DNA of 64,000 nucleotides. Source: an uncultured Chloroflexia bacterium. Its GTDB lineage: Bacteria > Chloroflexota > Chloroflexia > Thermomicrobiales > UBA6265. This document shows, one piece after another, positions 7,482-17,283 of this stretch. Location of the stretch: assembly GCA_963750275.1 (NCBI GenBank), contig CAVVQC010000005.1:756105-820104 (forward strand), written 5' to 3'. Made by a program: the position numbers and the translations under genes. Positions within the stretch are counted from its first letter, which is position 1; each line of letters starts with the position of its first letter. Under the pieces are notes generated by a model. The model did no database searches, was not told where the DNA came from, and was given only the letters and a program-made list of their open reading frames with translations.

Positions 7482-9627
7482 TTACTCGTCCCCGCCAGAT
7501 ACCGGCAAATTCGCCTCGATACGTGTCCCGGCAGGATCGAGCGGCTCGGCCGCAAATGCGCCCCCAAGCTCCAACGCGCGCTCTCGCATCGATTGCAATC
7601 CAACGCCGGAGATACGGTCGGTCGCAATACCACCCCCATCGTCCTCGATCGTCAACCGGATTCCCGCTGAGTCATGCGCGATACGTATCACGCACCGAGT
7701 TGCATTGGCATGCCGCACGACATTCGTCAACGCCTCGTCGACGATATGGTAAATGGCCACTTCGACTGCTGCCGGCAGGTCACCCAGTTGATCCGGAGCG
7801 TCGAGCGTCACGAGCAAGCGACGCTCCGACATTGGACGCTCCTTCACCAAGATTGACGGTCGAAATCCGATTCTGCAGGGCGCCGATCAACCCCAGATCG
7901 TCGAGCGCTGCCGGCCGCAATCCTTGCACCAACCGGCGAATATCGGCGATGGCGGTGCGCAGCTCCTGTTGCAGCTCGGTTGCCTGTTCCACGGCCGCAT
8001 CCGGATCGCTGCGGATGGTTACCTTCATTGCCCCAGCCTGCAAGGTGAGCGCGGCCAGCTGCGCACCGAGCCCATCGTGCAAATCGCGGCGCAAACGGCG
8101 GCGTTCTTCTTCCCGGGCGGTCACGATCCGCTCGCGCGAAAGCTGCAAGTCATTCGTAAGGCGCACGTTGTGCGCCACCACCCCGATCTGGCGCGCCAGA
8201 TCGTCCAAAAGGCGCAGATCGGTCGAATCGAACTCGCGCGAGCCGGAACGCGGGGAGACGATCAACTCTCCCACCGGTTGCGATTGATAGATCAGCGGGA
8301 TTGGCACCTCGGTGGCGCCAGGTGTTCCGGCTACCGCGACCGGCAGCACCCCCGATTCGAGCGTAATCGCCGCATAGGGGAGGCGCAATGCTTCGGTCAG
8401 GGTGCGCACCGTCGCCCGCAAAGCTTCCACCGGCTGAATCGTTTCGGACAGATCGCCAGCCAGCTTGCGCAGCACCTCATAGGGATCGTCCCGATCGCCA
8501 TAGAAGAGGCGATTGACACCATGCTGTACGCGTGCCCGCATGGGCTGAAAAAGCACTGCGGTCAGGCCCAGTGCGAACAGCGTGAGCACGTTCGATCGAT
8601 CATGCTCGAAGCTCGATCCGATACCAAAAACAATGCCAACATAGGCAGCAATCACGAGCACCGTCATCAGAAGCCAGACCAGCGTACGGCTGATGACGAG
8701 ATCGATATCGAAGAGCCGGTACCGCAGAATCGCGATGGTCAGGCAGATGGGAAAAGCCAGCGAAAAGACCGGCACCGCAATCGTGAAGCCGAGCATAGCC
8801 AGCACTCCTCTGGGAGAGTCGTCGATATTCCGCATCATGGCGTCACCGATCAGAAATGCGGAAAGGGCGAGCACCACGCCAATAGCGCCCAATTTCATCT
8901 GCTGCCGCTGGACCGGGCTCGACTTCCAACGATACCGATAGATGAGCGTGCCAAGACCCAATACCAACAGCAGCAGATCGCTACCTGCCTCCACTACCCG
9001 GCCCAGGCCCTGGCTTGGGTCTCGTCCTGGCGCAGCGATAAACGAGCACACCATGATCATGTAGAACGCCGCCGGAATGGCGACCCATCGCGGCACAAAG
9101 GTGCCGGTCGGAAAGAGCAACGGCAGCAGAAATAGACTGGTAATGTTGAGCGCCGTCAGCATGATGCCAACGGCGAGCCAGACCGGCTCGCCGGCCAACT
9201 GCCGGTGCAGATCAGGGGGATAAACCGCGCCAATACCGGCAACGAAGGTCAGGGAGATGTAGAACGCAAACCAGTCGGTTCCCCGTCGTTTCCAAAGCAG
9301 GATCGCGCTCAGGACCACGGCCACCAGCGACTGGAGGAGCATTCCCCCCGCGACGACGATGGACAATGAACGCTCGGAGATCCCCAGACCCGCAAGATTC
9401 GACCGGAAACCAGCCGCCTCGGTCGCAGACATATCGGTCATGCCGAGAATATCGTCGACCTGCAGCGTGCTGGTCCGGACGAACATTGCCACCGCCAACA
9501 AGAGCACAATGAGCCAGAACATCATCTGCCCGCGACGAACCCGCGCGGGATCGAGTCCCACCAAAGCTCGCTGCCGGAATGATGCGCCGAATTGCATCGG
9601 TTGCGTCCATTCGCCTGTTGTTGGCAC
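7482..9627 (-). pseudogene. membrane sensor histidine kinase (HisKA_3 + HATPase_c), split by one frameshift as assembled
   Basis: ORF 7780..9627 has multiple TM helices, a GAF-like segment and the dimerisation/His block EERRRLRRDLHDGLGAQLAAL. The ATPase domain (LPAAVEVAIYHIVDEALTNVVRHA, IEDDGGGI, GVGLQSMRERA) is in overlapping ORF 7482..7850 in another frame. The shift lies somewhere around 7800-7870. It sits immediately upstream of the response regulator. Confidence 0.85.
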
Positions 9628-9677: not shown

Positions 9678-10538
9678 TCACACGACGGTGACGATGTCCA
9701 GCATTCCCTCCATCGCGTGGGGCACGTCGCCCGGGAAGGGAAGCATGCACAGCACCGCATACGTTCCGGGCGCCAGATCGGTGTCGAGCCAGGTCGTGAG
9801 TCCGGCTCCCAATATGCTTGTCGCGGCAGCGGGTTGGTAGTTGGTGAGCGCGGTCGTCAATGGATCGTCGGCCAGCGGAGTCGCGTCTGGCGGCAAGGCA
9901 AAGAGGGCAAGAAGCTCGTCGGTTGTGGTTCCCTCCGGCACTGCCATCACCTGAAACTCATGGGCAATTGCTCCGATATTGCTCACTTTCAGTTGTGCTA
10001 CTCCACCGGGCAGTCCATCCTCCGGCAGAACAAAGCGCATCTCGGTGAGCTCGACCGTGGCAGTTGCGTTCGGTTCGACTGAGGCGTTGTTGCCGTCGGC
10101 CACGGTCGTGAACGCGCTTCTGCTCGAAAACGGATCGAACATGAAATAGTTCCCCGCTGCCAGATCGATTACGCCGGTTCGCGTCTCCCCCGGAACACCC
10201 CAGTCGGGTAGCCCGACATAGCCAGCATTCAGGAACCAGTCGGGCAAATCCTCTGATCCGGAGGTCATGAAGGCCATAACGTCATCCGGAGTCGTCCCAT
10301 CGGGTAACCGCCCCAGGGAGGAGTGCGATGGGGTCGTGCCCGCATTGACCACGCTGACCGCATAGCGTCCCGCCGTGAGTCCTTCGGGGATCTCATACGA
10401 ATCGTCGTTGACTGTGATGGTCAAGCTCGGAAAGTCCGCTGCCGCGGGAGTTCCCTGCGCAAACGCGCGATTGCCGCGTGCGATGAACATGTTCGCTACC
10501 AGGAAGCCGCTCCCCTGGAGAAGTGTGCGCCGGTTCAT
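9678..10538 (-). CDS. Tat/Sec-exported two-domain protein with C-terminal cupredoxin-like (type-1 copper-like) ligand pattern
   Basis: Start ATG 10538 (AAAGAGGA RBS) gives MNRRTLLQGSGFLVANMFIARGNRAFAQ. The C-terminal domain has H (AIAHEFQV) ... C-x8-H-x3-M (AVLCMLPFPGDVPHAMEGMLDIVTV). It is a paralog of 62330..63241. Confidence 0.6.
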   Translation of the reverse strand: MNRRTLLQGSGFLVANMFIARGNRAFAQGTPAAADFPSLTITVNDDSYEIPEGLTAGRYAVSVVNAGTTPSHSSLGRLPDGTTPDDVMAFMTSGSEDLPDWFLNAGYVGLPDWGVPGETRTGVIDLAAGNYFMFDPFSSRSAFTTVADGNNASVEPNATATVELTEMRFVLPEDGLPGGVAQLKVSNIGAIAHEFQVMAVPEGTTTDELLALFALPPDATPLADDPLTTALTNYQPAAATSILGAGLTTWLDTDLAPGTYAVLCMLPFPGDVPHAMEGMLDIVTVV

Positions 10539-10725
10539 GGGTCGTCCTCTTTCACGATTGTCCGAAGCGCGGCACGTCCAAACCGCATGCAACGCTGGCA
10601 ACACCGTAGATGCGGGGAGTTCCCGGGTGACAGGGGGAGTGATCCCGATGCAACCGGGAAATTTCGCGCCGCACAATGGGTTCGATGGAGTCAGGTCTGG
10701 CAGCGTGAGAGGCACACGCAACTAC

Positions 10726-10923
10726 GCTCCATCGCTCTTCCACACACTTATTTCATCGAGTTCCAACGTGCGCGAGCTCACCGGCCTCTCTCGTCCGGCC
10801 ACCAATCAGCTCGTCCTGCGGCTCGAAGAAACAGGGTTCCTGGCCGAAATCACCGGATAGCGGCGGAATCGCTATTTCCGATACGAATCCTCCACGCGAC
10901 TCTCCGACGATCCGCCTGATTGA
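10726..10923 (+). pseudogene. remnant of a Fic/DOC-family gene (C-terminal winged-helix tail only, in-frame TAG)
   Basis: The translation SLFHTLISSSSNVRELTGLSRPATNQLVLRLEETGFLAEITG*RRNRYFRYES resembles the Fic C-terminal wHTH pattern (..tGlS..TA...l..L...G.L.e.tG..RnR.f.y). No Fic catalytic core lies upstream. Confidence 0.3.
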
Positions 10924-10926
10924 GCC

Positions 10927-12237
10927 ATGTGCCACACTATCCGCAGCTTTATATTTGCTTTAGTGAGAAAGGCAAGAATCTTGTCATCACCACAAAACCC
11001 GGTCAAGCGTATTCGCGAGGAATCGCACGATGCCGCGGTCGATACCGACCTCTCGGCCGCACTGCTGGCCTTCGCCCAGCTCCCTCCCGCCACCGAGACC
11101 CCGTACGCCACGGTGACCCTGGACTGGTATCCCGAGGCCGGCAAGCGCACCTCGCCGGTGGAAGCCTGGCAAGAGATCAAGGAAGAAGTTTGGGGCTTCC
11201 ACTTCCGCAGCGAAGAAGGAATTTCGGCCGAGAACGACCGCCTGCGCGTGGGCGAATACATCGCCGATGAGCTGGACAAAACGGCGCGCGGCGCCATGAT
11301 CGTCTCGAACAGCGGGGAAGGTATATTCGAAGCGGCCTCGTTCGGGGTCAGTATTCCAACGACGACCAATCTTGGTCCTATCCCCTACCTCAAGGAGTTC
11401 ACCCGGCTGGTCGAAGACAATCCGACCTACGCCATTCTGGTGCTCGATCAGGCTTCGGCCGAGCTCTCGGTCATCAGTGGTGATGTCCTGACCGATTCTG
11501 TTTCTGTGACCGGCAGCAAGTATCCGCGTCACCAGTCAGCCGGCGCGCTCAATCAGCGTCGTTATCAGAATCGCGCGAACGATCGCGTCGACGCCTTCAT
11601 CAAAACAGTCGCCGAGGAAGTGCAGGCCACGCTGGAACAGACCGGCGTGCGCCGCCTGGTCATCGGCAGCGATGAGGTCAACGGCGCGCTCTTCCAGGAA
11701 GCGGTTCACGATACCGTCAAGGAGAAGATCATCGGCCACTTCAGGGTCGATATCAGCGCGGCGAACTTCGATCAGGTGCTCGAACTCGCCGAGCCGATCG
11801 CAACTGCCTACGAGCGCAGCCGCGAATCGGACGCCGTGGATGCGGTGGCCGACGCGGTCGGTTCCGGCAATCGAGGCGCGGCGGGCGCGGTCGACGTGCT
11901 CAAGGCGCTCGAACAAGGTCAGGTCTTCCGGCTGGTCATGAGCGGCGACTACGCCGAAATGGGCTGGGCCGACTACACCATGCCGATCTACGGCATCGGA
12001 GATGTCCCGACTACGCACCCGGCCGGGGGCGATCTGCACAACATCGTACCGGTGCCACTGGAGCAGGAGATGATCCGCCAGGCGCTCATCACCGGCGCGC
12101 AGATCGAGATCGTCGACCCCTCCGTCCCAGTCGATACTGAAGGCGAGGTGCCCCGCGCCGACGGAGAGATCCCGAACTCGGCCGCCGATGCCAAGCTCGA
12201 CGCCCTCGGTGGCGTCGGAGCACTGCTTCGCTGGTAA
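10927..12237 (+). CDS. eRF1/Pelota-fold protein (bacterial aeRF1, baeRF/acVLRF1-like; Vms1-type peptidyl-tRNA hydrolase family candidate)
   Basis: The central block is AILVLDQASAELSVISGD...KYPRHQSAGALNQRRYQNRANDRVDAFIKTVAEEV, which is like the eRF1 GGQ-loop region with Gln retained. The C-terminal block AAGAVDVLKALEQGQVFRLVM is like eRF1 domain 3. The start is uncertain: ATG 10927 or TTG 10981 preceded by GAAAGG. Confidence 0.6.
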   Translation: MCHTIRSFIFALVRKARILSSPQNPVKRIREESHDAAVDTDLSAALLAFAQLPPATETPYATVTLDWYPEAGKRTSPVEAWQEIKEEVWGFHFRSEEGISAENDRLRVGEYIADELDKTARGAMIVSNSGEGIFEAASFGVSIPTTTNLGPIPYLKEFTRLVEDNPTYAILVLDQASAELSVISGDVLTDSVSVTGSKYPRHQSAGALNQRRYQNRANDRVDAFIKTVAEEVQATLEQTGVRRLVIGSDEVNGALFQEAVHDTVKEKIIGHFRVDISAANFDQVLELAEPIATAYERSRESDAVDAVADAVGSGNRGAAGAVDVLKALEQGQVFRLVMSGDYAEMGWADYTMPIYGIGDVPTTHPAGGDLHNIVPVPLEQEMIRQALITGAQIEIVDPSVPVDTEGEVPRADGEIPNSAADAKLDALGGVGALLRW

Positions 12238-12257
12238 ATTCTCGTTTCGGAAAACGC

Positions 12258-12291
12258 ATCAGCCCGCTTCCAGCAGTGGAAGCGGGCTGAT
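12258..12291. terminator. intrinsic terminator hairpin between convergent genes
   Basis: ATCAGCCCGCTTCCA-gcag-TGGAAGCGGGCTGAT forms a perfect 15-bp stem, followed by TTCATTC. It lies between the stop at 12237 (+) and the stop at 12321 (-). Confidence 0.8.
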
Positions 12292-12320
12292 TTCATTCAA
12301 CGACCTTCGAGGAGATCTCC

Positions 12321-13691
12321 TCAATCAGGCTTGATGTTCTGGTTCCGGCGGAACAGATTTTGCGGGTCGTAGGTCCGCTTGAGTGCAACCAGCCGCTCGT
12401 AGACGGGCGCGTCATACGCCTGGGGGATCCGCTCGGCTCCATCGCCAACTCCCAGATAGTTCATATAGACGCCAGTCGCATACGGCCGCAAGGCTTCACG
12501 CATGCCACGCGCCCAGGCAATGCCGGCCGCTTCCTCTGAAGGATCCATCCACCGGGCGATGATCGCGAGGTTGTAGGGCGCCTGCCGGTGCGCGAAGGCA
12601 GTGGCATCGGACGGCACGCGGGCGACCGCTCCACCCAGATGCTCGATCAGTACCACACTCAAAGGAGAGGGAGCGCGATTCGCCCAGTCAACGATGAGAT
12701 CGATCGTTGCATCGTCCAGCTCCATCAAAAAATGTGCGGTCCAATAGACAGGAACCCCTTTGGGGAAGCCTTCATCCAGCATGGACTGCAACGCCACATA
12801 GGGGATCGGCCCGACCATGTCAGCGACCGGCTCGCCAAGCTCGAGGATTGCCTCATGCGTCGGAGCGGCAACCGCGGGATCGGCGGAAACCGAGACCGAA
12901 ATGAACCCCGACAACGGAACGCCGTCCGGATTCGAAAGCAATCCGAAGAAGGTCGCCTGCTCATCGGGCGCGGATGCCGTGATCGATCGGTAATGTTTCA
13001 GTGCGTCGGTCGCCACCGACCGTGGGTAGAAGATCGGACCGGCAATGACCCCCTCCATCGGGTGCAGGCGGAAGGTCATCTGCGTAACCACCCCGAAGTT
13101 TCCGCCGCCACCACGCAAGCCCCAAAGCAGATCGGGGCGTTCCGTTTCGCTGGTGTTCACCACACTGCCATCGGCGAGAACGACCTCAGCCCCGATCAGG
13201 TTGTCGCATGCAAGTCCGTACTTTCGCATCAGCCAACCGACCCCACCACCAAGGGTCAGCCCGCCAATACCGGTCGTAGAAATCGCGCCACCGGTAGTCG
13301 CAAGATTGTGGGCTGTGGTGGCGGCATCGAATTGTCCCCAGGTAGTTCCCCCTCCGGCACGGGCGATGCGCTGCTCCGGATCGACATCGACAGCATGCAT
13401 TGGCGAAAGATCGATGAGGAGCCCACCTTCGCAGGTCCCTAATCCGGCAGCGCTATGCCCACCACCACGCACCGCAAGGTCAAGCCCGTTTTCGCGGCCA
13501 AAGTTCACCGCCGCCACGACGTCTTCGGTCGAGGCGCATTGCGCGACCGCAGCCGGGTAGACGTCGATCATTCCATTCCAAACCTTGCGGACGACTTCGT
13601 AGTCCGGATTGTCAGGGAGAAGGAGCGATCCTTGAAGCGAGGCACGCAGGGAGTCGAACGTAGATACGTCGTAGCGTGGAGCAACAGTCAT
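12321..13691 (-). CDS. FAD-binding oxidoreductase (FAD_binding_4 + BBE/berberine-bridge-like C-terminus)
   Basis: Start ATG 13691 (GGAGG RBS) gives MTVAPRYDVSTF... The FAD block is LAVRGGGHSAAG and the BBE-like tail is YMNYLG...YDPQNLFRRNQNIKP. Confidence 0.85.
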   Translation of the reverse strand: MTVAPRYDVSTFDSLRASLQGSLLLPDNPDYEVVRKVWNGMIDVYPAAVAQCASTEDVVAAVNFGRENGLDLAVRGGGHSAAGLGTCEGGLLIDLSPMHAVDVDPEQRIARAGGGTTWGQFDAATTAHNLATTGGAISTTGIGGLTLGGGVGWLMRKYGLACDNLIGAEVVLADGSVVNTSETERPDLLWGLRGGGGNFGVVTQMTFRLHPMEGVIAGPIFYPRSVATDALKHYRSITASAPDEQATFFGLLSNPDGVPLSGFISVSVSADPAVAAPTHEAILELGEPVADMVGPIPYVALQSMLDEGFPKGVPVYWTAHFLMELDDATIDLIVDWANRAPSPLSVVLIEHLGGAVARVPSDATAFAHRQAPYNLAIIARWMDPSEEAAGIAWARGMREALRPYATGVYMNYLGVGDGAERIPQAYDAPVYERLVALKRTYDPQNLFRRNQNIKPD

Positions 13692-13958
13692 TCGTGAGCC
13701 TCCATTTCTTGAGTGTGAAGCGCATCGGGAGTCCGATCGCAGTGTATGCCCACAGGTGCAGCCCGGCAAGTGCCCGTACCGCCGTCCATTTCTCACGAAA
13801 TGCCCAGGAAGCGCGTCCCCTGAGCGCTTACGACAATCTGTCGCTGCGCTTGATCGCATCCGAGCGTAGCCACCCGGTCCTCCAACGGGCCAAACAACCA
13901 GATGGTGAAGTTGCCTTACCTGGCCGATTCGAGTGTGGCACCCCGCAGAGCTGCACGA

Positions 13959-14219
13959 TCAGGAACCGTGTTCCTTCCACGCCCGATACTGCTCCGGCAT
14001 GCACCGGGCACATGGCCGGTACCCTGCCGCAATCGCCGTCGCCTCATCGGCAAAAAACACCCGATGCGAGGCATAGTGCCCATTCGCCAGATGCCGTAAC
14101 GCCGACGGGCAATCAAGCCGACCGTAGAGTTTCATCGGCTTATAGCCGCCAAGCGTTCCCGGCGTGCTCGAATGATAGGGTTTTCCATCCGCGCCGATCA
14201 GGGTATAGGTCTTGGGCAT
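13959..14219 (-). CDS. Ada metal-binding-domain-like small protein
   Basis: The sequence is MPKTYTLIGADGKPYHSSTPGTLGGYKPMKLYGRLDCPSALRHLANGHYASHRVFFADEATAIAAGYRPCARCMPEQY, with a C..C..C Zn pattern. It overlaps the 3' end of the upstream PQQ ORF by ~80 nt. Confidence 0.65.
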   Translation of the reverse strand: MPKTYTLIGADGKPYHSSTPGTLGGYKPMKLYGRLDCPSALRHLANGHYASHRVFFADEATAIAAGYRPCARCMPEQYRAWKEHGS

Positions 14220-16398
14220 CCTTTGGCACGGGAGGTAGCGGCACTCCTTTCTCGTGCGCGAACGGAGTCGCGCTGCCAGCCGCATCAATACATGGAGCAA
14301 GTTCGATGTCTTGCGACACGACTGGTGTCGCTTCGAGGGTGGCGGTGCCAGGTGAAGCCTCGTATCTGATGATTGCGTCCACATCGCCAGCATCGACCAC
14401 TACGAGCGAACCGTCGACGCTGTAGACGGACATGGCGCCCAGCGTATCTCGCAGCCGCCACCAGTGCACGTCGCCAGTATCGATATCGACCCCAGCAAGA
14501 CTGGAATCGACCAACACCGCAACCACCGTGTTTCCCACGACAGTCAATTGCATGAAGGCCATTGCTTGCACGAAATTGTCCACAGCTCCGATTGGCCGAG
14601 ACTCTCCCGTGAGATCGGTCGAATAGATCGCCTCACCTGTGCGGAGATCGAAGGCGTCCAGCTGGTTGTCAGTGCCAAGAACGAGAATGCGATCGTCCGT
14701 AACTGCCATCGCCCCCGGAGACTGGTCTGCCGATGCACGCCAGAATTCATCTCCTGTAGCGGCTTCGAGTGCAAGCACCAGCGTGTTCGTTCCCATCGCG
14801 CTCTTGCCTCGTCCCGCGACGATCAGAAGGTCGCCGCGGACCTCCATGGCGGTTGTGCCAAGGTCGATCTGCTTCTGCCAAAGCACGGCTCCGCTTTCGG
14901 TATCGACCGCTTGCAGGTAGTCTTCGGTCACGAGATTCGTGAACGCTCGGAACACGCGGCCATCACCAAATGCCGGCTCGTGCCATTCGGTCCCAGCGCC
15001 TGCTGGTCCCACCGTAGTCCAAAGCACTTCTCCTGGCTCAAGAGCAGTTGGCGTTGGCGTGCCATCTCCGAGCTGCCATTTCGGCACGTATTGGGGTAGT
15101 CCGATAAGCGTGCCGTCCTGCGCTGCAATGATGAACATGCTGCCCAGCTTGAGCGCGCCTTGTGGAATGGTATTCACAAACGGTAGCGCCCTGGCAAGTT
15201 CCGAATCAACATTGACGGTCCATTGCGCTCCGTCCGGCATGATTACCGACCCATAGGTCGTTTCCGAGCCAGCATCGCGATACGAGAAGTCTGGCTGGAG
15301 TTGATCCCTCTCCGACATCTCGCCAGTAGCGCCATCGATGAGACAGTAAGCAACCTGATTGTCCGAACCCTGCTCAGTATCTCCAGGCGACGTGGCGATC
15401 CCGAGCAGCGTCTCCTCCGAAAGTTTCCAAACCAGGGATCTCACAGGAGTGGAGGCGCCCCACAACAATGAGCCGCTGCCAGGATCGATCGAGAGTACGT
15501 CGACAATATCGGGAGTTCCATCGACCTCGGGCACATTCGCAATATCAACTGACCGAAACGCTTGCTGGCAAATGCCCGATGCAGGATCACTACCGGCCTG
15601 TGGTGTTGCTTCAACCATCACCGACCGTGCGCTCGTGTTCCCTCCTTGGTCGGAATTAGAGACAACGAAAGTGCCTTCGACAACCTGCACTTTGGTTGGT
15701 CCTGAAAGGTGTGGCGGAACTTTCCAGAGATACGCACCGTCGTCACTATCGACTGCCACCACGTCCCCGCGATCAGTAATCGCTGCGAGCACGCCGTCTT
15801 GCAAGGCAAGGCGGCCGTCGAGATAAACAAGCACCGGCGAACGGCTCGAATCGTCCACATACGAATCGAGGTCGACCGTCCATCTTGGCGACTGACTTAT
15901 GGGGTCGAGCGCAGTGACCACATTGTTGGTGTCCAGCATCAGGACTTCGTCTCCGCCACTGACCATATCAACCGGAAGGGCAGCGAGGGGTTCCCGCCAT
16001 CGTTCAACACCGGTGGTTCGATCAAGCGCGATGAGAAGGTTGGAGTCCCCGCTGGGAGATTCGACGCTCATTGCAAAGACCAACATCTCTGATGTGACGC
16101 TGCTAACGCCCATCCAGCCGTCAAGTTCTGTCCGCCACAACTCGTTCCCGGTTGCGGCATCGATGGCTTGGACGATTGGGAAGCCCTCCTGTCGATAGAT
16201 CACCCAAAAGACTTCTTGTTCCCCATCGGAAGAAATCAGCATCTGGCCAGTCGTGCCTTCCGGCGCATCGATTTGCCAGGCAATGGCCGAGGATTGAGCA
16301 GTTGGCTCTGGTGACGACTCCACCGTGCCGAAACTGGCAGCCGGAATGGCGCTCGGTTCCGGCGTAGAGCGTGAATTGAGCAGGCCACCAAAGATCAC
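14140..16398 (-). CDS. PQQ-like beta-propeller repeat protein (probably the extracytoplasmic part of the upstream anti-sigma/TM protein)
   Basis: The 752-aa ORF has repeated G..LW...(D/L)..(V/A) blade patterns (ATGNELWRTEL, TTGVERWREPL, SGAVLWQKQI, ATGDEFWRASA, DTGDVHWWRL). As assembled it starts at a GTG overlapping the upstream stop (GTGA) and lacks its own signal peptide. Confidence 0.75.
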   Translation of the reverse strand: MIFGGLLNSRSTPEPSAIPAASFGTVESSPEPTAQSSAIAWQIDAPEGTTGQMLISSDGEQEVFWVIYRQEGFPIVQAIDAATGNELWRTELDGWMGVSSVTSEMLVFAMSVESPSGDSNLLIALDRTTGVERWREPLAALPVDMVSGGDEVLMLDTNNVVTALDPISQSPRWTVDLDSYVDDSSRSPVLVYLDGRLALQDGVLAAITDRGDVVAVDSDDGAYLWKVPPHLSGPTKVQVVEGTFVVSNSDQGGNTSARSVMVEATPQAGSDPASGICQQAFRSVDIANVPEVDGTPDIVDVLSIDPGSGSLLWGASTPVRSLVWKLSEETLLGIATSPGDTEQGSDNQVAYCLIDGATGEMSERDQLQPDFSYRDAGSETTYGSVIMPDGAQWTVNVDSELARALPFVNTIPQGALKLGSMFIIAAQDGTLIGLPQYVPKWQLGDGTPTPTALEPGEVLWTTVGPAGAGTEWHEPAFGDGRVFRAFTNLVTEDYLQAVDTESGAVLWQKQIDLGTTAMEVRGDLLIVAGRGKSAMGTNTLVLALEAATGDEFWRASADQSPGAMAVTDDRILVLGTDNQLDAFDLRTGEAIYSTDLTGESRPIGAVDNFVQAMAFMQLTVVGNTVVAVLVDSSLAGVDIDTGDVHWWRLRDTLGAMSVYSVDGSLVVVDAGDVDAIIRYEASPGTATLEATPVVSQDIELAPCIDAAGSATPFAHEKGVPLPPVPKDAQDLYPDRRGWKTLSFEHAGNAWRL

Positions 16399-16742
16399 AC
16401 CCCCCCCCCGATTAGCAGGAAGAATGCGGCAACAATCGCAGCCAGACGGGACTGGGACAATCCGCGAACCTTAGGAGCGACGGGTGTTGGTCGTGCCATG
16501 ACCTGCGGCCGAGACACCGCAGCCACCCGAAGTCCCTCGGCTGCGCTCGGGACGATGGAAAGCGGAAACAAGGAGCGTTCGAGTTGCGCGATGAACTCTT
16601 CTGACGGAAACGCGTGTTGCCGGTCAAACAGGGACTGCACAGTTTCGGCTGTGCCTAGCAACGGTTCCGAGCCGTTGAGCGCGATATCTCGCTCCCCGTC
16701 CAGCGCCCGGTCGAAACGGACGGCCATATCGTGTTCGGTCAT
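16395..16742 (-). CDS. putative anti-sigma factor N-terminal/TM segment (truncated in the middle of its TM helix as assembled)
   Basis: The 115-aa ORF overlaps the ECF sigma gene stop by 4 nt. It has a soluble N-part followed by RLAAIVAAFFLLIGGGV*. No zinc-anti-sigma HxxxCxxC motif is present. Confidence 0.55.
   Translation of the reverse strand: MTEHDMAVRFDRALDGERDIALNGSEPLLGTAETVQSLFDRQHAFPSEEFIAQLERSLFPLSIVPSAAEGLRVAAVSRPQVMARPTPVAPKVRGLSQSRLAAIVAAFFLLIGGGV
16400..16409 (-). repeat. homopolymer tract C10 (G10 on the coding strand) at the junction of two ORFs
   Basis: Read directly as cac-cccccccccc-gatt. G10 gives ..LLIGGGV* followed by GTG-ATC... G11 would fuse the ORFs to ..AAIVAAFFLLIGGGGVIFGGLLNSRS.., a full-length TM helix. 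Confidence 0.9.
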
Positions 16743-17283
16743 GAGGTCACCTGTTTCGGATCGAGCAAAATGCGGAGCTGCTGGTACGCGCGGAATTGCA
16801 ATGCGCGCACCGCGCCATGCGAGCGGCCGAGCGCTTCGGCAATTTCCGGACCGGACAATCCGGCCAACCGCAGTTCCACCACTTCGCGTTGTTCGGAAGT
16901 CAGCCCATCGAGCAACCGACGCAGATCGAGCGCGTCTTCACGCTGCAAGAGATCATCATCCAGTCCGGCGCGGACCACGTCGGAGTCGACCAGCGCAACC
17001 GTTGGTCGCGCTCGATGCAGATCGGTCACCACATTGCGGGCAATCGCGTAAAGCCACGCTCGAAACGTACAGGCGCGATATCCCGGCAACCCTGCCAGCG
17101 CCTGCACGAAGACCTGGCTTGTCGCGTCCTCCGCCAGTTCGCGCGTCCCAGCCGCTGGTAGCAGAAGCCAAAGATCGGTCCCACATAGCGGCGGTAGAGC
17201 GGCGCGAACGCGGCCGGATCGCGCTGCGCTTGCGCGGCCAGTAGCTCGTCGTCCGGTTCGATTCGCCCGCGTTCCTCGGTCAT
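16739..17283 (-). pseudogene. ECF (sigma-70 family group 4) RNA polymerase sigma factor, one frameshift as assembled
   Basis: The N-part MTEERGRIEPDDELLAAQAQRDPAAFAPLYRRYVGPIFGFCYQRLG is in ORF 17026..17292. Region 2/4 follows in ORF 16739..17107: ELAEDATSQVFVQALAGL.., FRAWLYAIARNVV, LTSEQREVVELRLAGLSGPEIAEALGRSHGAVRALQFRA. The junction needs +1 nt near 17140-17146. Confidence 0.85.

What the first reader, a model, noticed from the sequence alone, without database searches (positions are those of the whole stretch)
10927..12237. Bacterial eRF1/Pelota-fold protein (baeRF/acVLRF1-like)
The 436-codon ORF shows an eRF1-like layout. A central block, AILVLDQASAELSVISGD...KYPRHQSAGALNQRRYQNRANDRVDAFIKTVAEEV, reads like the eRF1 GGQ-loop region (..GRGGQSAxRFxRLRxE..). 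The catalytic Gln is kept (HQSA) but the Gly-Gly is replaced. A C-terminal block, AAGAVDVLKALEQGQVFRLVM, is like eRF1 domain 3.

Bacteria normally use RF1/RF2. Bacterial archaeo-eukaryotic-type release-factor homologs have been predicted computationally to act in ribosome rescue or peptidyl-tRNA hydrolysis but remain essentially uncharacterised experimentally. It stands alone here, between a Fic-gene remnant and a strong terminator.
Basis: partly seen in the sequence, partly recalled or inferred. Interest (0 to 1): 0.55.

Follow-up and report, generated by a model that had tools for sequence, protein, structure and literature searches.

The report
Balon-type ribosome hibernation factor homologue
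This gene encodes a bacterial relative of the archaeal/eukaryotic release factor eRF1, in the same family as a mycobacterial protein shown in 2024 to park in idle ribosomes during stress, so it is a real but fairly ordinary new member of a known kind.

Summary
The ORF is real, conserved and under purifying selection (dN/dS 0.08-0.16). Its true start is most likely the conserved TTG at 10981 (418 aa), not the ATG at 10927.

It is a three-domain aeRF1-fold protein. Its best Pfam match is baeRF_family10 (65 bits, cut-off 27). Its best structural matches in the PDB are the ribosome-bound hibernation factors called Balon: Msmeg1130 (TM 0.72/0.80), Rv2629 and P. urativorans Balon. These rank ahead of aRF1/eRF1 (about 0.5) and Pelota (about 0.3).

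The aRF1 GGQ aligns with G-A-L in this protein (GGW or GGL in relatives). None of 191 relatives has Gln there. A different Gln two residues downstream is conserved.

There is no NIKS motif and no conserved operon partner. The gene belongs to a long-form clade that, in the species-representative genome scan, turned up almost only in Thermomicrobiales and Chloroflexia MAGs.

Most likely function: a non-catalytic A-site hibernation factor (about 0.6). An active peptidyl-tRNA hydrolase is not excluded (about 0.17). It is a new member of a known kind, of modest interest.

The parts
10981..12237 (+). Corrected gene: 418-aa three-domain aeRF1-fold protein (Pfam baeRF_family10), TTG start, TAA stop at 12235-12237
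   Evidence: Orthologues are 418 aa and start at the same TTG, or GTG in L001. dN/dS against five orthologues is 0.08-0.16. GC3 is 0.76 against GC2 0.44.
10927..10980 (+). The first 18 codons of the ORF as reported. Probably untranslated 5' leader, not coding.
   Evidence: The ATG at 10927 is not conserved in six orthologous loci, and homologous proteins lack these residues.
10967..10972 (+). Shine-Dalgarno-like GAAAGG, 8 nt upstream of the TTG start
   Evidence: Conserved in all seven aligned loci.
10928..10938 (+). Conserved upstream motif TGTGCCACACT (T[G/A]TGCCACACT in relatives), about 43 nt before the start codon. Possibly an extended -10 element (TGnCACACT) or an operator.
   Evidence: Invariant block in otherwise diverged intergenic DNA of seven loci. 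Not enriched elsewhere in the window. The function assigned to it is inference.
10981..11421 (+). N-terminal domain (aa 1-147). It has the eRF1 N-domain fold without NIKS. The NIKS-equivalent loop reads WGFHFRSE, with near-invariant R76. The clade-specific N-terminal extension is aa 1-20.
   Evidence: AF2 secondary structure. aRF1 alignment. No NIKS string in 191 relatives. A Foldseek search with the domain alone hits Balon and eRF1/aRF1 N domains about equally, TM 0.5-0.6.
11422..11856 (+). Middle domain (aa 148-292), the RNase-H-like domain that carries the catalytic loop in release factors
   Evidence: Pfam baeRF_family10 65.4 bits over ORF residues 153-291, and eRF1_2 27.9 bits.
11524..11577 (+). 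Loop and helix equivalent to the GGQ region: P182-R-H-Q-S-A-G188-A189-L190-N191-Q192-R-R-Y-Q-N-R-A199. G-A-L (11542-11550) is the GGQ counterpart. The conserved Gln Q192 is at 11554-11556.
   Evidence: Alignments to aRF1. Motif census: GGWSQ 94, GGLNQ 21, GGWAQ 13, GGLSQ 9 and GALNQ 5 of 191, never Gln at the GGQ position, Gln at +2 in 159 of 191. Positions 189 and 190 vary even within the clade at 77% identity or more. The loop is low-confidence in the AF2 model: mean pLDDT 59 for residues 181-190.
11857..12234 (+). C-terminal domain (aa 293-418), eRF1 domain 3 / Pelota-type, ending in GGVGALLRW
   Evidence: Alignments to Msmeg1130, Rv2629, aRF1 and eRF1, including the terminal G-x-G-A-L-L-R-aromatic motif. 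AF2 model.
11962..12033 (+). Beta-hairpin insertion in the C domain (aa 328-351, GWADYTMPIYGIGDVPTTHPAGGD), a degenerate Zn ribbon. It lies where Balon carries the hairpin that contacts EF-Tu(GDP).
   Evidence: Predicted strands 327-331 and 336-339. Short-form relatives keep C..C..C..C at the same columns, while the long-form clade has D..M..H..G. Burroughs and Aravind describe this two-strand insert at the Zn-ribbon site (PMC6514570). The EF-Tu contact is inferred from PMC10901736.
12115..12195 (+). Clade-specific insertion of about 27 aa before the C-terminal motif (DPSVPVDTEGEVPRADGEIPNSAADAK)
   Evidence: Present in 71 of 191 relatives, where it co-occurs with the N-terminal extension and the degenerate Zn ribbon. 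Low-confidence in the AF2 model: mean pLDDT 57 and 64 for the two blocks covering residues 381-400.
12258..12291 (.). Perfect 15-bp GC-rich hairpin between the convergent genes. Likely a bidirectional terminator.
   Evidence: RNA fold -33.6 kcal/mol, z = -6.57, 0 of 200 shuffles as stable. Not called by the consensus scan, because the T-run is imperfect.
10732..10860 (+). Remnant of the C-terminal winged-helix part of a Fic-family gene, including its stop codon
   Evidence: 55% identity over 42 aa to residues 321-362 of the intact 384-aa Fic protein in syntenic locus L001. No Pfam hit for the 161-aa ORF that contains it.

Best explanation
The gene encodes a stand-alone, three-domain bacterial aeRF1 homologue of Pfam family baeRF_family10. 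It belongs to a long-form clade found in Thermomicrobiales and Chloroflexia MAGs.

Most likely it is a Balon-type ribosome hibernation factor. Under starvation or stress it would enter the ribosomal A site without reading mRNA, since it has no NIKS. Its middle-domain loop and the conserved basic helix (Q192, R194, Y195, Q196, R198, R202) would sit against 23S rRNA next to the peptidyl-transferase centre without releasing the peptide, since it has no GGQ. The hairpin insertion in its C domain would offer a docking site for EF-Tu(GDP). Translation would then be paused reversibly and the ribosome protected.

Shown here: the fold, the family membership, the absence of NIKS and GGQ, the presence of the hairpin insertion, purifying selection and monocistronic organisation. 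Inferred from the characterised relatives: ribosome binding, EF-Tu involvement, stress regulation and lack of catalysis.
For: 1. Family. The best Pfam family is baeRF_family10 at 65.4 bits, against a cut-off of 27.1 and with a margin of 25 bits over the next family. Msmeg1130 is the mycobacterial hibernation factor solved on the ribosome in 8v9j and 8v9l. Its residues 103-375 score 126.6 bits on the same model.

2. Structure. The AF2 model is confident (pLDDT 86.6, pTM 0.81). Its top PDB matches are Msmeg1130 (E 5.5e-21, TM 0.72/0.80), P. urativorans Balon (0.63/0.70) and Rv2629 (0.67/0.75). These are ahead of aRF1/eRF1 (about 0.5) and Pelota (about 0.3).

3. Sequence. The family profile ranks Msmeg1130 (1e-20) and Rv2629 (5.5e-19) first among all PDB sequences.

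4. Motifs. There is no NIKS. The GGQ position is G-A-L here and W, L, M, I or P in relatives, never Q in 191 sequences. Positions 189 and 190 drift (G/A; L/W/M) among orthologues at 77% identity or more, while the flanking helix face is invariant. GGQ mutations abolish eRF1 activity (Frolova 1999, as cited in PMC10901736).

5. C domain. It carries the two-strand insertion at the Zn-ribbon site, the feature Balon uses for EF-Tu(GDP) (PMC10901736).

6. Selection. Purifying selection is strong, with dN/dS 0.08-0.16.

7. Neighbours. In distant relatives they include an MscS channel, a DUF308 (HdeD-like) protein, DUF892 and an anti-sigma factor. This is loosely consistent with the stress contexts reported for Balon genes (PMC10901736).
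Against: - Identity to the solved Balon proteins is only 14-17%.
- The NCBIfam equivalog models for the two mycobacterial hibernation-factor families are missed by a wide margin: 54 bits against 480, and 50 against 320.
- The family profile is almost as close to aRF1 (2.3e-18) as to Msmeg1130. It does not detect P. urativorans Balon by sequence at E <= 1.
- The higher global TM to Balon partly reflects the predicted arrangement of the domains. With the N domain alone, Balon and eRF1/aRF1 are indistinguishable.
- No HPF/RaiA, Hsp20 or RtcB neighbour was found in 19 loci, and there is no RaiA in the window.
- The loop keeps a GG-x-S/N-Q pattern with a well-conserved Gln (159 of 191). This resembles the GGxSQ motif of VLRF1-type hydrolases, and Burroughs and Aravind singled out family 10 as possibly catalytic (PMC6514570).
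- No experiment exists for this clade.
Confidence: 0.6

Rival explanations
1. It is an active peptidyl-tRNA hydrolase or ribosome-rescue factor. The GG-x-(S/N)-Q loop would work like the GGxSQ / GxuQ motif of Vms1/VLRF1-type enzymes, with Q192 as the catalytic Gln. It would release or cleave peptidyl-tRNA on stalled ribosomes or 50S subunits.
For: - Across 191 relatives the loop reads G (94%), G (91%), x, S/N/A, Q (83%). This is the pattern Burroughs and Aravind report for aVLRF-1 and acVLRF-1. They name family 10 as the baeRF family most likely to be catalytic (PMC6514570).
- Distant relatives P0054, P0056 and P0057 exceed the Pfam acVLRF1 cut-off (49-54 bits), although baeRF_family10 scores higher for each.
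- NCBI names two homologues 'Vms1/Ankzf1 family peptidyl-tRNA hydrolase'.
- Q192 is invariant in the close clade.
Against: - In this protein the motif is degenerate: G-A-L-N-Q. The second Gly is lost and the tiny residue before Gln is Asn. The Gly/Ala and L/W/M positions drift among close orthologues.
- The window protein scores below cut-off on both acVLRF1 models. It has the full three-domain architecture that acVLRF1 lacks.
- Q192 lies two residues past the position of the catalytic Gln. It falls in the first turn of the predicted helix. A. pernix aRF1 also has Gln at that position (GGQSQRRY), in addition to its catalytic Gln.
- The only characterised member of the Pfam family, Msmeg1130, was found to be a hibernation factor (PMC10901736).
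Confidence: 0.17
2. It is a non-catalytic, Pelota/Dom34-like rescue or recycling factor. It would recognise stalled or damaged ribosomes in the A site and promote subunit splitting or recruit other factors, rather than storing ribosomes.
For: - It has the same superfamily fold, with Pelota hits at Foldseek E 6e-11 and profile E 9e-9.
- It has no catalytic Gln at the GGQ position.
- Burroughs and Aravind proposed a Dom34-like non-catalytic role for most baeRF families (PMC6514570).
- The lack of linkage to HPF leaves room for a role other than hibernation.
Against: - Pelota is a much poorer structural and sequence match than Balon or aRF1, with TM about 0.3.
- No partner is encoded nearby, whether an ABCE1-like ATPase, an Hbs1-like GTPase or an RNA repair gene.
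- Bacteria have no known ABCE1-type splitting partner (general knowledge).
Confidence: 0.13
3. It is a decaying or functionless gene in a degrading locus.
For: The surrounding locus shows decay: a Fic remnant, a histidine kinase split into two frames and a truncated ECF sigma ORF.
Against: - The reading frame is intact over its full length, with conserved start, SD and stop.
- dN/dS is 0.08-0.16 against five orthologues.
- The gene is 97% identical to P0001.
- A conserved upstream motif is present.
Confidence: 0.03

Closest known systems
Msmeg1130 (MSMEG_1130), the Mycobacterium smegmatis 'Balon' ribosome hibernation factor (PDB 8v9j, 8v9l; Helena-Bueno et al. 2024, PMC10901736)
   Same: - Same Pfam family, baeRF_family10.
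- Best structural match, TM 0.72/0.80, and best PDB sequence match to the family profile, 1e-20.
- Three domains, no NIKS, no GGQ.
- An insertion in the C domain at the same site, and the same C-terminal ...LRW end.
- A conserved Gln and Arg-rich helix after the loop.
   Different: - Only about 16-17% identity.
- The window protein misses the NCBIfam equivalog cut-off (54 bits against 480).
- Msmeg1130's loop reads ER-AG-QMRE, two residues shorter and without W/L or S/N.
- The window protein has an N-terminal extension, an HPAGGD hairpin and a C-terminal insert of about 27 aa, all absent from Msmeg1130.
- Ribosome binding has not been tested for this clade.
Rv2629 (M. tuberculosis) and P. urativorans Balon (PDB 8v9k; 8rd8, 8rdv, 8rdw)
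   Same: - Same fold and overall conformation, TM 0.63-0.75.
- Rv2629 shares the Y-P-x-H/R ... (A/G)-G-W loop context with this family's consensus, YPRxQxxGGW.
   Different: - Rv2629 belongs to Pfam baeRF_family2.
- P. urativorans Balon is not detected by the family profile at E <= 1.
- Whether this protein has Balon's named features (HP motif, lasso loop, bL27 trap) could not be mapped residue by residue.
Archaeal/eukaryotic class-I release factor aRF1/eRF1 (e.g. A. pernix aRF1, PDB 3agk)
   Same: - Same three-domain layout.
- The loop and helix context is strikingly retained: aRF1 GGQSQRRY against the family's GGWSQRRY and the window's GALNQRRY.
- C-terminal GG-x-G-x-L-R-aromatic motif.
- Profile E-value 2.3e-18.
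   Different: - Catalytic Gln replaced by Trp or Leu.
- NIKS absent.
- TIGR03676 scores 52 bits against a cut-off of 235.
- Global TM only about 0.5.
- Bacteria terminate translation with RF1/RF2 (general knowledge).
acVLRF1 / Vms1-ANKZF1-type peptidyl-tRNA hydrolases (Burroughs and Aravind 2019, PMC6514570)
   Same: - RNase-H-fold release-factor middle domain.
- A GG-x-S-Q-like loop pattern in most family members.
- Found in Chloroflexota.
   Different: - Below cut-off on Pfam acVLRF1 (21.7 against 27.1) and on NCBIfam acVLRF1 (17.3 against 125).
- acVLRF1 lacks the stop-codon-binding N domain (PMC6514570) and its NCBIfam model is only 208 positions long, whereas this protein has all three domains.
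- The window's own motif is G-A-L-N-Q.

Membership tests
Pfam PF18854 baeRF_family10 | Score at or above the curated gathering cut-off (27.1 bits), and best-scoring among the related baeRF/eRF1 models | tested here: met
   65.4 bits, E 8.5e-18, profile positions 1-141 of 143. The next best models are baeRF_family3 at 40.7 and baeRF_family2 at 37.2 bits.
aeRF1 superfamily fold (eRF1/aRF1, Pelota, Balon) | Three-domain architecture: N domain, RNase-H-like middle domain and Pelota-type C domain | tested here: met
   AF2 model with pLDDT 86.6 and pTM 0.81. Forty-six PDB matches at E <= 1e-3; of the 50 best listed, all but one are Balon, aRF1/eRF1 or Pelota/Dom34, and most of the full-length ones align across nearly the whole model.
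Balon-type ribosome hibernation factors (Helena-Bueno 2024) | Absence of the NIKS stop-codon motif | tested here: met
   No NIKS string in the window protein or in 191 relatives. The loop aligned to aRF1 'DNIKL' reads WGFHFRS.
Balon-type ribosome hibernation factors (Helena-Bueno 2024) | Absence of the GGQ peptide-release motif | tested here: met
   GGQ aligns with G-A-L. Among 191 relatives the position is W in 125 and L in 36, and never Q.
Balon-type ribosome hibernation factors (Helena-Bueno 2024) | Beta-hairpin insertion in the C-terminal domain (the EF-Tu(GDP) contact site) | tested here: met
   Predicted strands 327-331 and 336-339 lie within the insertion GWADY...HPAGGD at the Zn-ribbon site. 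Whether it contacts EF-Tu was not tested.
Balon-type ribosome hibernation factors (Helena-Bueno 2024) | [quoted passage not shown] | tested here: inconclusive
   No residue-level superposition is available. A Foldseek search with the N domain alone matches Balon and eRF1/aRF1 N domains equally, TM 0.52-0.60 and E 8e-3 to 0.1.
Balon-type ribosome hibernation factors (Helena-Bueno 2024) | Binds the ribosomal A site independently of mRNA, inhibits translation, and is induced by or needed in stress or stationary phase | not testable with these tools
   Needs biochemistry, cryo-EM or expression data. None exists for this clade in the papers searched.
Balon-type ribosome hibernation factors (Helena-Bueno 2024) | Frequent genomic linkage to RaiA/HPF or stress-response genes | tested here: not met
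   Of 65 flanking genes from 19 loci, no Pfam family recurs in more than 3, and there is no HPF, Hsp20 or RtcB. There is no RaiA in the 64-kb window. A few distant loci have MscS, DUF308 or DUF892 neighbours. Linkage is typical of the family, not obligatory (PMC10901736).
NCBIfam NF052288 MSMEG_1130-family RHF and NF052289 Rv2629-family RHF (equivalogs) | Score at or above the curated equivalog cut-off | tested here: not met
   54.3 bits against 480, and 50.0 bits against 320. The protein is a distant relative, not an equivalog.
Class-I release factor aRF1/eRF1 (TIGR03676) | Equivalog score, GGQ and NIKS | tested here: not met
   52.4 bits against 234.7. GGQ and NIKS are both absent.
acVLRF1 / Vms1-type peptidyl-tRNA hydrolase | Model score above cut-off, a GGxSQ (GxuQ) loop, and an architecture without the N-terminal codon-recognition domain | tested here: not met
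   Pfam 21.7 against 27.1, and NCBIfam 17.3 against 125. The loop here is G-A-L-N-Q. The N domain is present.
Pelota/Dom34 | Closest structural and sequence neighbour, with an Sm-like N domain carrying loop A | tested here: not met
   Pelota matches are much weaker: TM about 0.3, Foldseek E >= 6e-11 and profile E 9e-9. The N domain matches eRF1/Balon N domains, not Pelota.

The most novel reading that the evidence does not exclude
The long-form clade (N-terminal extension, degenerate Zn ribbon with HPAGGD, and a C-terminal insert of about 27 aa) may be a functionally distinct type of bacterial aeRF1 homologue, not just another Balon.

It keeps an almost intact aRF1 catalytic-loop context (GG-x-SQRRY), with a hydrophobic Trp or Leu where the catalytic Gln sits and a well-conserved Gln two residues later.

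It could be a conditional peptidyl-tRNA hydrolase or tRNA nuclease that uses Q192. Alternatively it could plug the peptidyl-transferase centre directly, with the aromatic or hydrophobic residue stacking on A2602 or U2585. Either would differ from the Balon lasso-loop and bL27-trap mechanism.
Probability: 0.15. Interest if true: 0.6.

Novelty: new member of a known kind. Interest (0 to 1): 0.3.

Why it matters
Balon-type factors were recognised only in 2024, and only three proteins, from Psychrobacter and Mycobacterium, have been studied. Nothing is known for Chloroflexota.

This gene shows that Thermomicrobiales carry a well-conserved, strongly constrained and structurally elaborated branch of the same Pfam family as Msmeg1130.

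The one open point of wider interest is Burroughs and Aravind's question of whether family 10 is catalytic. The sequences here argue against canonical GGQ chemistry: the position is Trp or Leu and is never Gln. They leave a conserved Gln at +2 unexplained.

A simple pair of assays, translation inhibition and peptidyl-tRNA hydrolysis, with Q192A and L190Q mutants, would settle whether the family contains both hibernation factors and hydrolases.

For annotation, the result corrects the gene start. It also argues against the 'Vms1/Ankzf1 family peptidyl-tRNA hydrolase' and 'peptide chain release factor subunit 1' names that public pipelines give to some homologues.

Tried and rejected
- The search for related loci with the broad alignments A1 and A2 failed, because no stretch was conserved enough. 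A narrower alignment, A3, worked but returned only 14 loci, all but one titled as Thermomicrobiales, Thermomicrobia or Chloroflexia MAGs. The taxonomic range of the wider family was therefore not mapped.
- A neighbourhood census looking for a conserved partner (HPF/RaiA, Hsp20, RtcB, GTPase, ABC-type ATPase) found none.
- Searches of the window for a paralogue or a RaiA found none.
- PADLOC defence models gave no hit for the protein or its neighbours. A conflict or defence reading is dropped.
- Rfam gave no match on the gene and its flanks at E <= 1. The conserved upstream motif is not a known RNA element.
- The consensus terminator scan made no call. The hairpin was confirmed by folding instead.
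- An AF2 model of the N domain alone, searched with Foldseek, was meant to test whether the decoding-centre domain is Balon-like or eRF1-like. The result was inconclusive.
- The Balon paper's supplementary text was searched for Chloroflexota or Thermomicrobia entries. Nothing was found in the two files held.
- The composition profile shows no sign of a foreign island.
- The acVLRF1 and aRF1 readings were rejected on score cut-offs, motifs and architecture.
- The pseudogene reading was rejected on dN/dS.
Full report
**1. The observation**

It is a real gene.
- It has 58 database homologues, down to 23% identity.
- Third-position GC is 0.76 against 0.44 at second positions.
- dN/dS against five orthologues is 0.08-0.16.

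The annotated start should move.
- All close homologues are 418 aa.
- In an alignment of seven orthologous loci, the start position is TTG (GTG once), preceded 8-9 nt upstream by an invariant GAAAGG.
- The window's ATG at 10927 is CTG, GTG or CTA in the others.
- The gene is therefore 10981..12237, 418 aa.

**2. What it is**

Profile searches:
- Pfam gives baeRF_family10 at 65.4 bits (cut-off 27.1), followed by baeRF families 3 and 2. eRF1_2 is just at its cut-off, and acVLRF1 is below its cut-off.
- NCBIfam gives only sub-threshold hits: the MSMEG_1130 hibernation-factor family (54 bits against 480), aRF1 (52 against 235), the Rv2629 family (50 against 320) and acVLRF1 (17 against 125).

Structure:
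- An AlphaFold2 model built on 40 sequences is confident (pLDDT 86.6, pTM 0.81). It shows three domains: N 1-147, middle 148-292, C 293-418.
- Foldseek against the PDB ranks the ribosome-bound hibernation factors first: Msmeg1130 (E 5.5e-21, TM 0.72/0.80), P. urativorans Balon (0.63/0.70) and Rv2629 (0.67/0.75).
- aRF1/eRF1 follow at TM about 0.5, and Pelota/Dom34 at about 0.3.

Sequence against the PDB:
- A profile of the family ranks Msmeg1130 (1e-20) and Rv2629 (5.5e-19) just ahead of A. pernix aRF1 (2.3e-18).

Link to an experimentally studied protein:
- I scanned the parts of Msmeg1130 and Rv2629 that these alignments print.
- Msmeg1130 is itself a strong baeRF_family10 member (126.6 bits). 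Rv2629 is baeRF_family2.
- The window protein therefore shares its Pfam family with a protein whose A-site binding, EF-Tu(GDP) association and inhibition of translation were shown experimentally (PMC10901736).

**3. The catalytic loop**

The alignments say otherwise.
- A. pernix aRF1 ...KHKMGGQSQRRYERI... aligns to the window's ...RHQSAGALNQRRYQNR.... GGQ therefore corresponds to G188-A189-L190, and the helix SQRRY corresponds to NQRRY.
- The family consensus is YPRxQxxGGWSQRRYQxRAxERV.
- I aligned 191 full-length relatives to the family profile. They comprise the hits plus representatives of 50%-identity clusters from a search that found 8325 clusters at E <= 1e-3.
- In those 191 the five-residue motif is GGWSQ 94, GGLNQ 21, GGWAQ 13, GGLSQ 9 and GALNQ 5.
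- Gln never occupies the GGQ position. Gln at +2 is present in 159 of 191. The 'GGQ' strings that do occur lie elsewhere in the proteins.
- Within the close clade (26 sequences at 77% identity or more), positions 189 (G/A) and 190 (L/W/M) vary. P182, R183, Q185, G188, N191, Q192, R194, Y195, Q196, R198, A199 and R202 are invariant. This is a helix face suited to binding rRNA.
- Canonical GGQ chemistry is therefore ruled out. Mutations of GGQ abolish eRF1 activity (Frolova 1999, as cited in PMC10901736).
- What remains open is the conserved +2 Gln. Burroughs and Aravind noted a well-conserved Gln in family 10 and a GGxSQ motif in VLRF1-type enzymes, and suggested that family 10 might be catalytic (PMC6514570).
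- Against that suggestion for this protein: its own motif is degenerate (G-A-L-N-Q); Q192 sits in the first turn of the predicted helix; at least one aRF1 has Gln at the same +2 position beside its true catalytic Gln; and the studied family member is a hibernation factor.

**4. Other anatomy**

- N domain. NIKS is absent. The loop aligned with aRF1's NIKL reads WGFHFRS, with a near-invariant Arg.
- C domain. It carries a two-strand insertion, GWADYTMPIYGIGDVPTTHPAGGD.
  - About a third of relatives have Cys at the four corresponding columns, an intact Zn ribbon.
  - The window's clade has D..M..H..G.
  - This matches Burroughs and Aravind's 'degenerate Zn ribbon' (PMC6514570). It lies where Balon carries its EF-Tu-contacting hairpin (PMC10901736).
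- Long-form clade. Of 191 relatives, 71 carry a C-terminal insert of about 27 aa, and nearly all of these also have the degenerate ribbon and an N-terminal extension (68 of 71).
- Distribution. A scan of species-representative genomes returned 14 loci, all but one titled as Thermomicrobiales, Thermomicrobia or Chloroflexia MAGs.
- N domain modelled alone. It matched Balon and eRF1/aRF1 N domains equally (TM 0.52-0.60). The preference for Balon in the whole-protein search therefore rests on the middle and C domains and on the arrangement of the domains.

**5. Context**

- The gene is monocistronic.
  - Upstream lie a divergent hypothetical gene and a 42-aa remnant of a Fic gene. The Fic gene is intact in syntenic locus L001.
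  - Downstream, a perfect 15-bp hairpin separates it from a convergent FAD/BBE oxidase gene.
- Close relatives share flanking synteny: a response regulator with a HisKA_3 kinase, an Ada-like Zn protein, a PQQ propeller and an ECF sigma factor. The immediate neighbours differ.
- A Pfam census of 65 flanking genes from 19 loci found no family in more than three of them, and no HPF/RaiA, Hsp20 or RtcB.
- Some distant relatives sit beside an MscS channel, a DUF308 (HdeD-like) protein, DUF892 or an anti-sigma factor.
- Nothing in the window resembles a second baeRF or a RaiA. There is no defence-system signature and no compositional island.

**6. Mechanism**

The best-supported reading is a Balon-type factor.
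- It enters the A site without reading a codon.
- It places the loop and helix beside the peptidyl-transferase centre without triggering release.
- It may recruit EF-Tu(GDP) through the C-domain hairpin.
- The result is a pause in translation and protection of the ribosome during stress.

Fold, family, motif status and selection are shown here. Ribosome binding, the EF-Tu contact, stress regulation and the lack of catalysis are inferred from Msmeg1130, Rv2629 and Balon.

I give this reading about 0.6. The alternatives are an active hydrolase using Q192 (about 0.17), a Pelota-like non-catalytic rescue role (about 0.13), and a dead gene (about 0.03).

**7. Comparison and novelty**

- The protein passes the Pfam family test and the structural and motif criteria used to define Balon homologues.
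- It fails the NCBIfam equivalog thresholds for both mycobacterial families.
- It lacks the typical linkage to HPF or stress operons.
- It fails all tests for aRF1/eRF1, acVLRF1 and Pelota membership.
- It is a new, divergent member of a known kind.
The claims 'catalytic Gln kept', 'acVLRF1-like' and 'uncharacterised' were not.
- Interest is modest. It lies in the long-form clade's aRF1-like loop with Trp or Leu in place of Gln, and in the conserved +2 Gln. Both make the catalytic-versus-hibernation question for family 10 directly testable.

Noticed in passing
window 10928-10938 (+); L001 9968-9978, L002 9949-9959, L012 5948-5958, L013 5949-5959, L014 5947-5957, L023 5949-5959: An 11-nt block, T[G/A]TGCCACACT, is invariant about 43 nt upstream of the start codon in all seven close orthologous loci, although the rest of the intergenic DNA has diverged. 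It reads as TGn + CACACT, a possible extended -10 element without a -35, or a regulator site. It is not enriched elsewhere in the window (3 matches at one mismatch or fewer, against 1.8 expected). It matches no Rfam family.
   Followed up: partly
window 7482-9627 (-): The histidine kinase upstream is split. HisKA_3 is in the 615-aa ORF 7780-9627, and HATPase_c is in a separate, overlapping 122-aa ORF 7482-7850 in another frame. Syntenic relatives have one intact gene of 706-711 aa. This points to a frameshift, either a pseudogene or an assembly error.
   Followed up: partly
window 10732-10860 (+) and the surrounding 9678-12321: Only the last 42 codons or so of a Fic/DOC gene survive. In relative L001, an alpha/beta hydrolase, a full Fic gene, an FAD amine oxidase and a 102-aa gene lie in this interval. 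Downstream, the window has a FAD/BBE oxidase (12321-13859) that L001 lacks. The flanks of the baeRF gene are therefore a hotspot of gene gain and loss, while the gene itself is kept.
   Followed up: partly
window 16739-17107 (-): The ECF-type sigma factor ORF is only 122 aa and matches only sigma-70 region 4. The syntenic gene in L001 is 189 aa, with regions 2 and 4. The ORFs just upstream gave no Pfam hit, so region 2 appears to be lost or frameshifted.
   Followed up: partly
window 13959-14393 (-) and 14140-16398 (-): The Ada_Zn_binding ORF (144 aa) overlaps the 3' end of the PQQ beta-propeller ORF (752 aa) by about 250 nt. In L001 the corresponding genes are 86 aa and 599 aa and do not overlap. 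One or both window ORFs are probably over-extended or fused by a frameshift.
   Followed up: no
homologues P0030, P0051, P0032, P0037 and P0043: Public pipelines name members of this same clade inconsistently: 'Vms1/Ankzf1 family peptidyl-tRNA hydrolase', 'peptide chain release factor subunit 1', 'protein required for attachment to host cells' and 'hypothetical protein'. None of them reflects the 2024 hibernation-factor work.
   Followed up: partly
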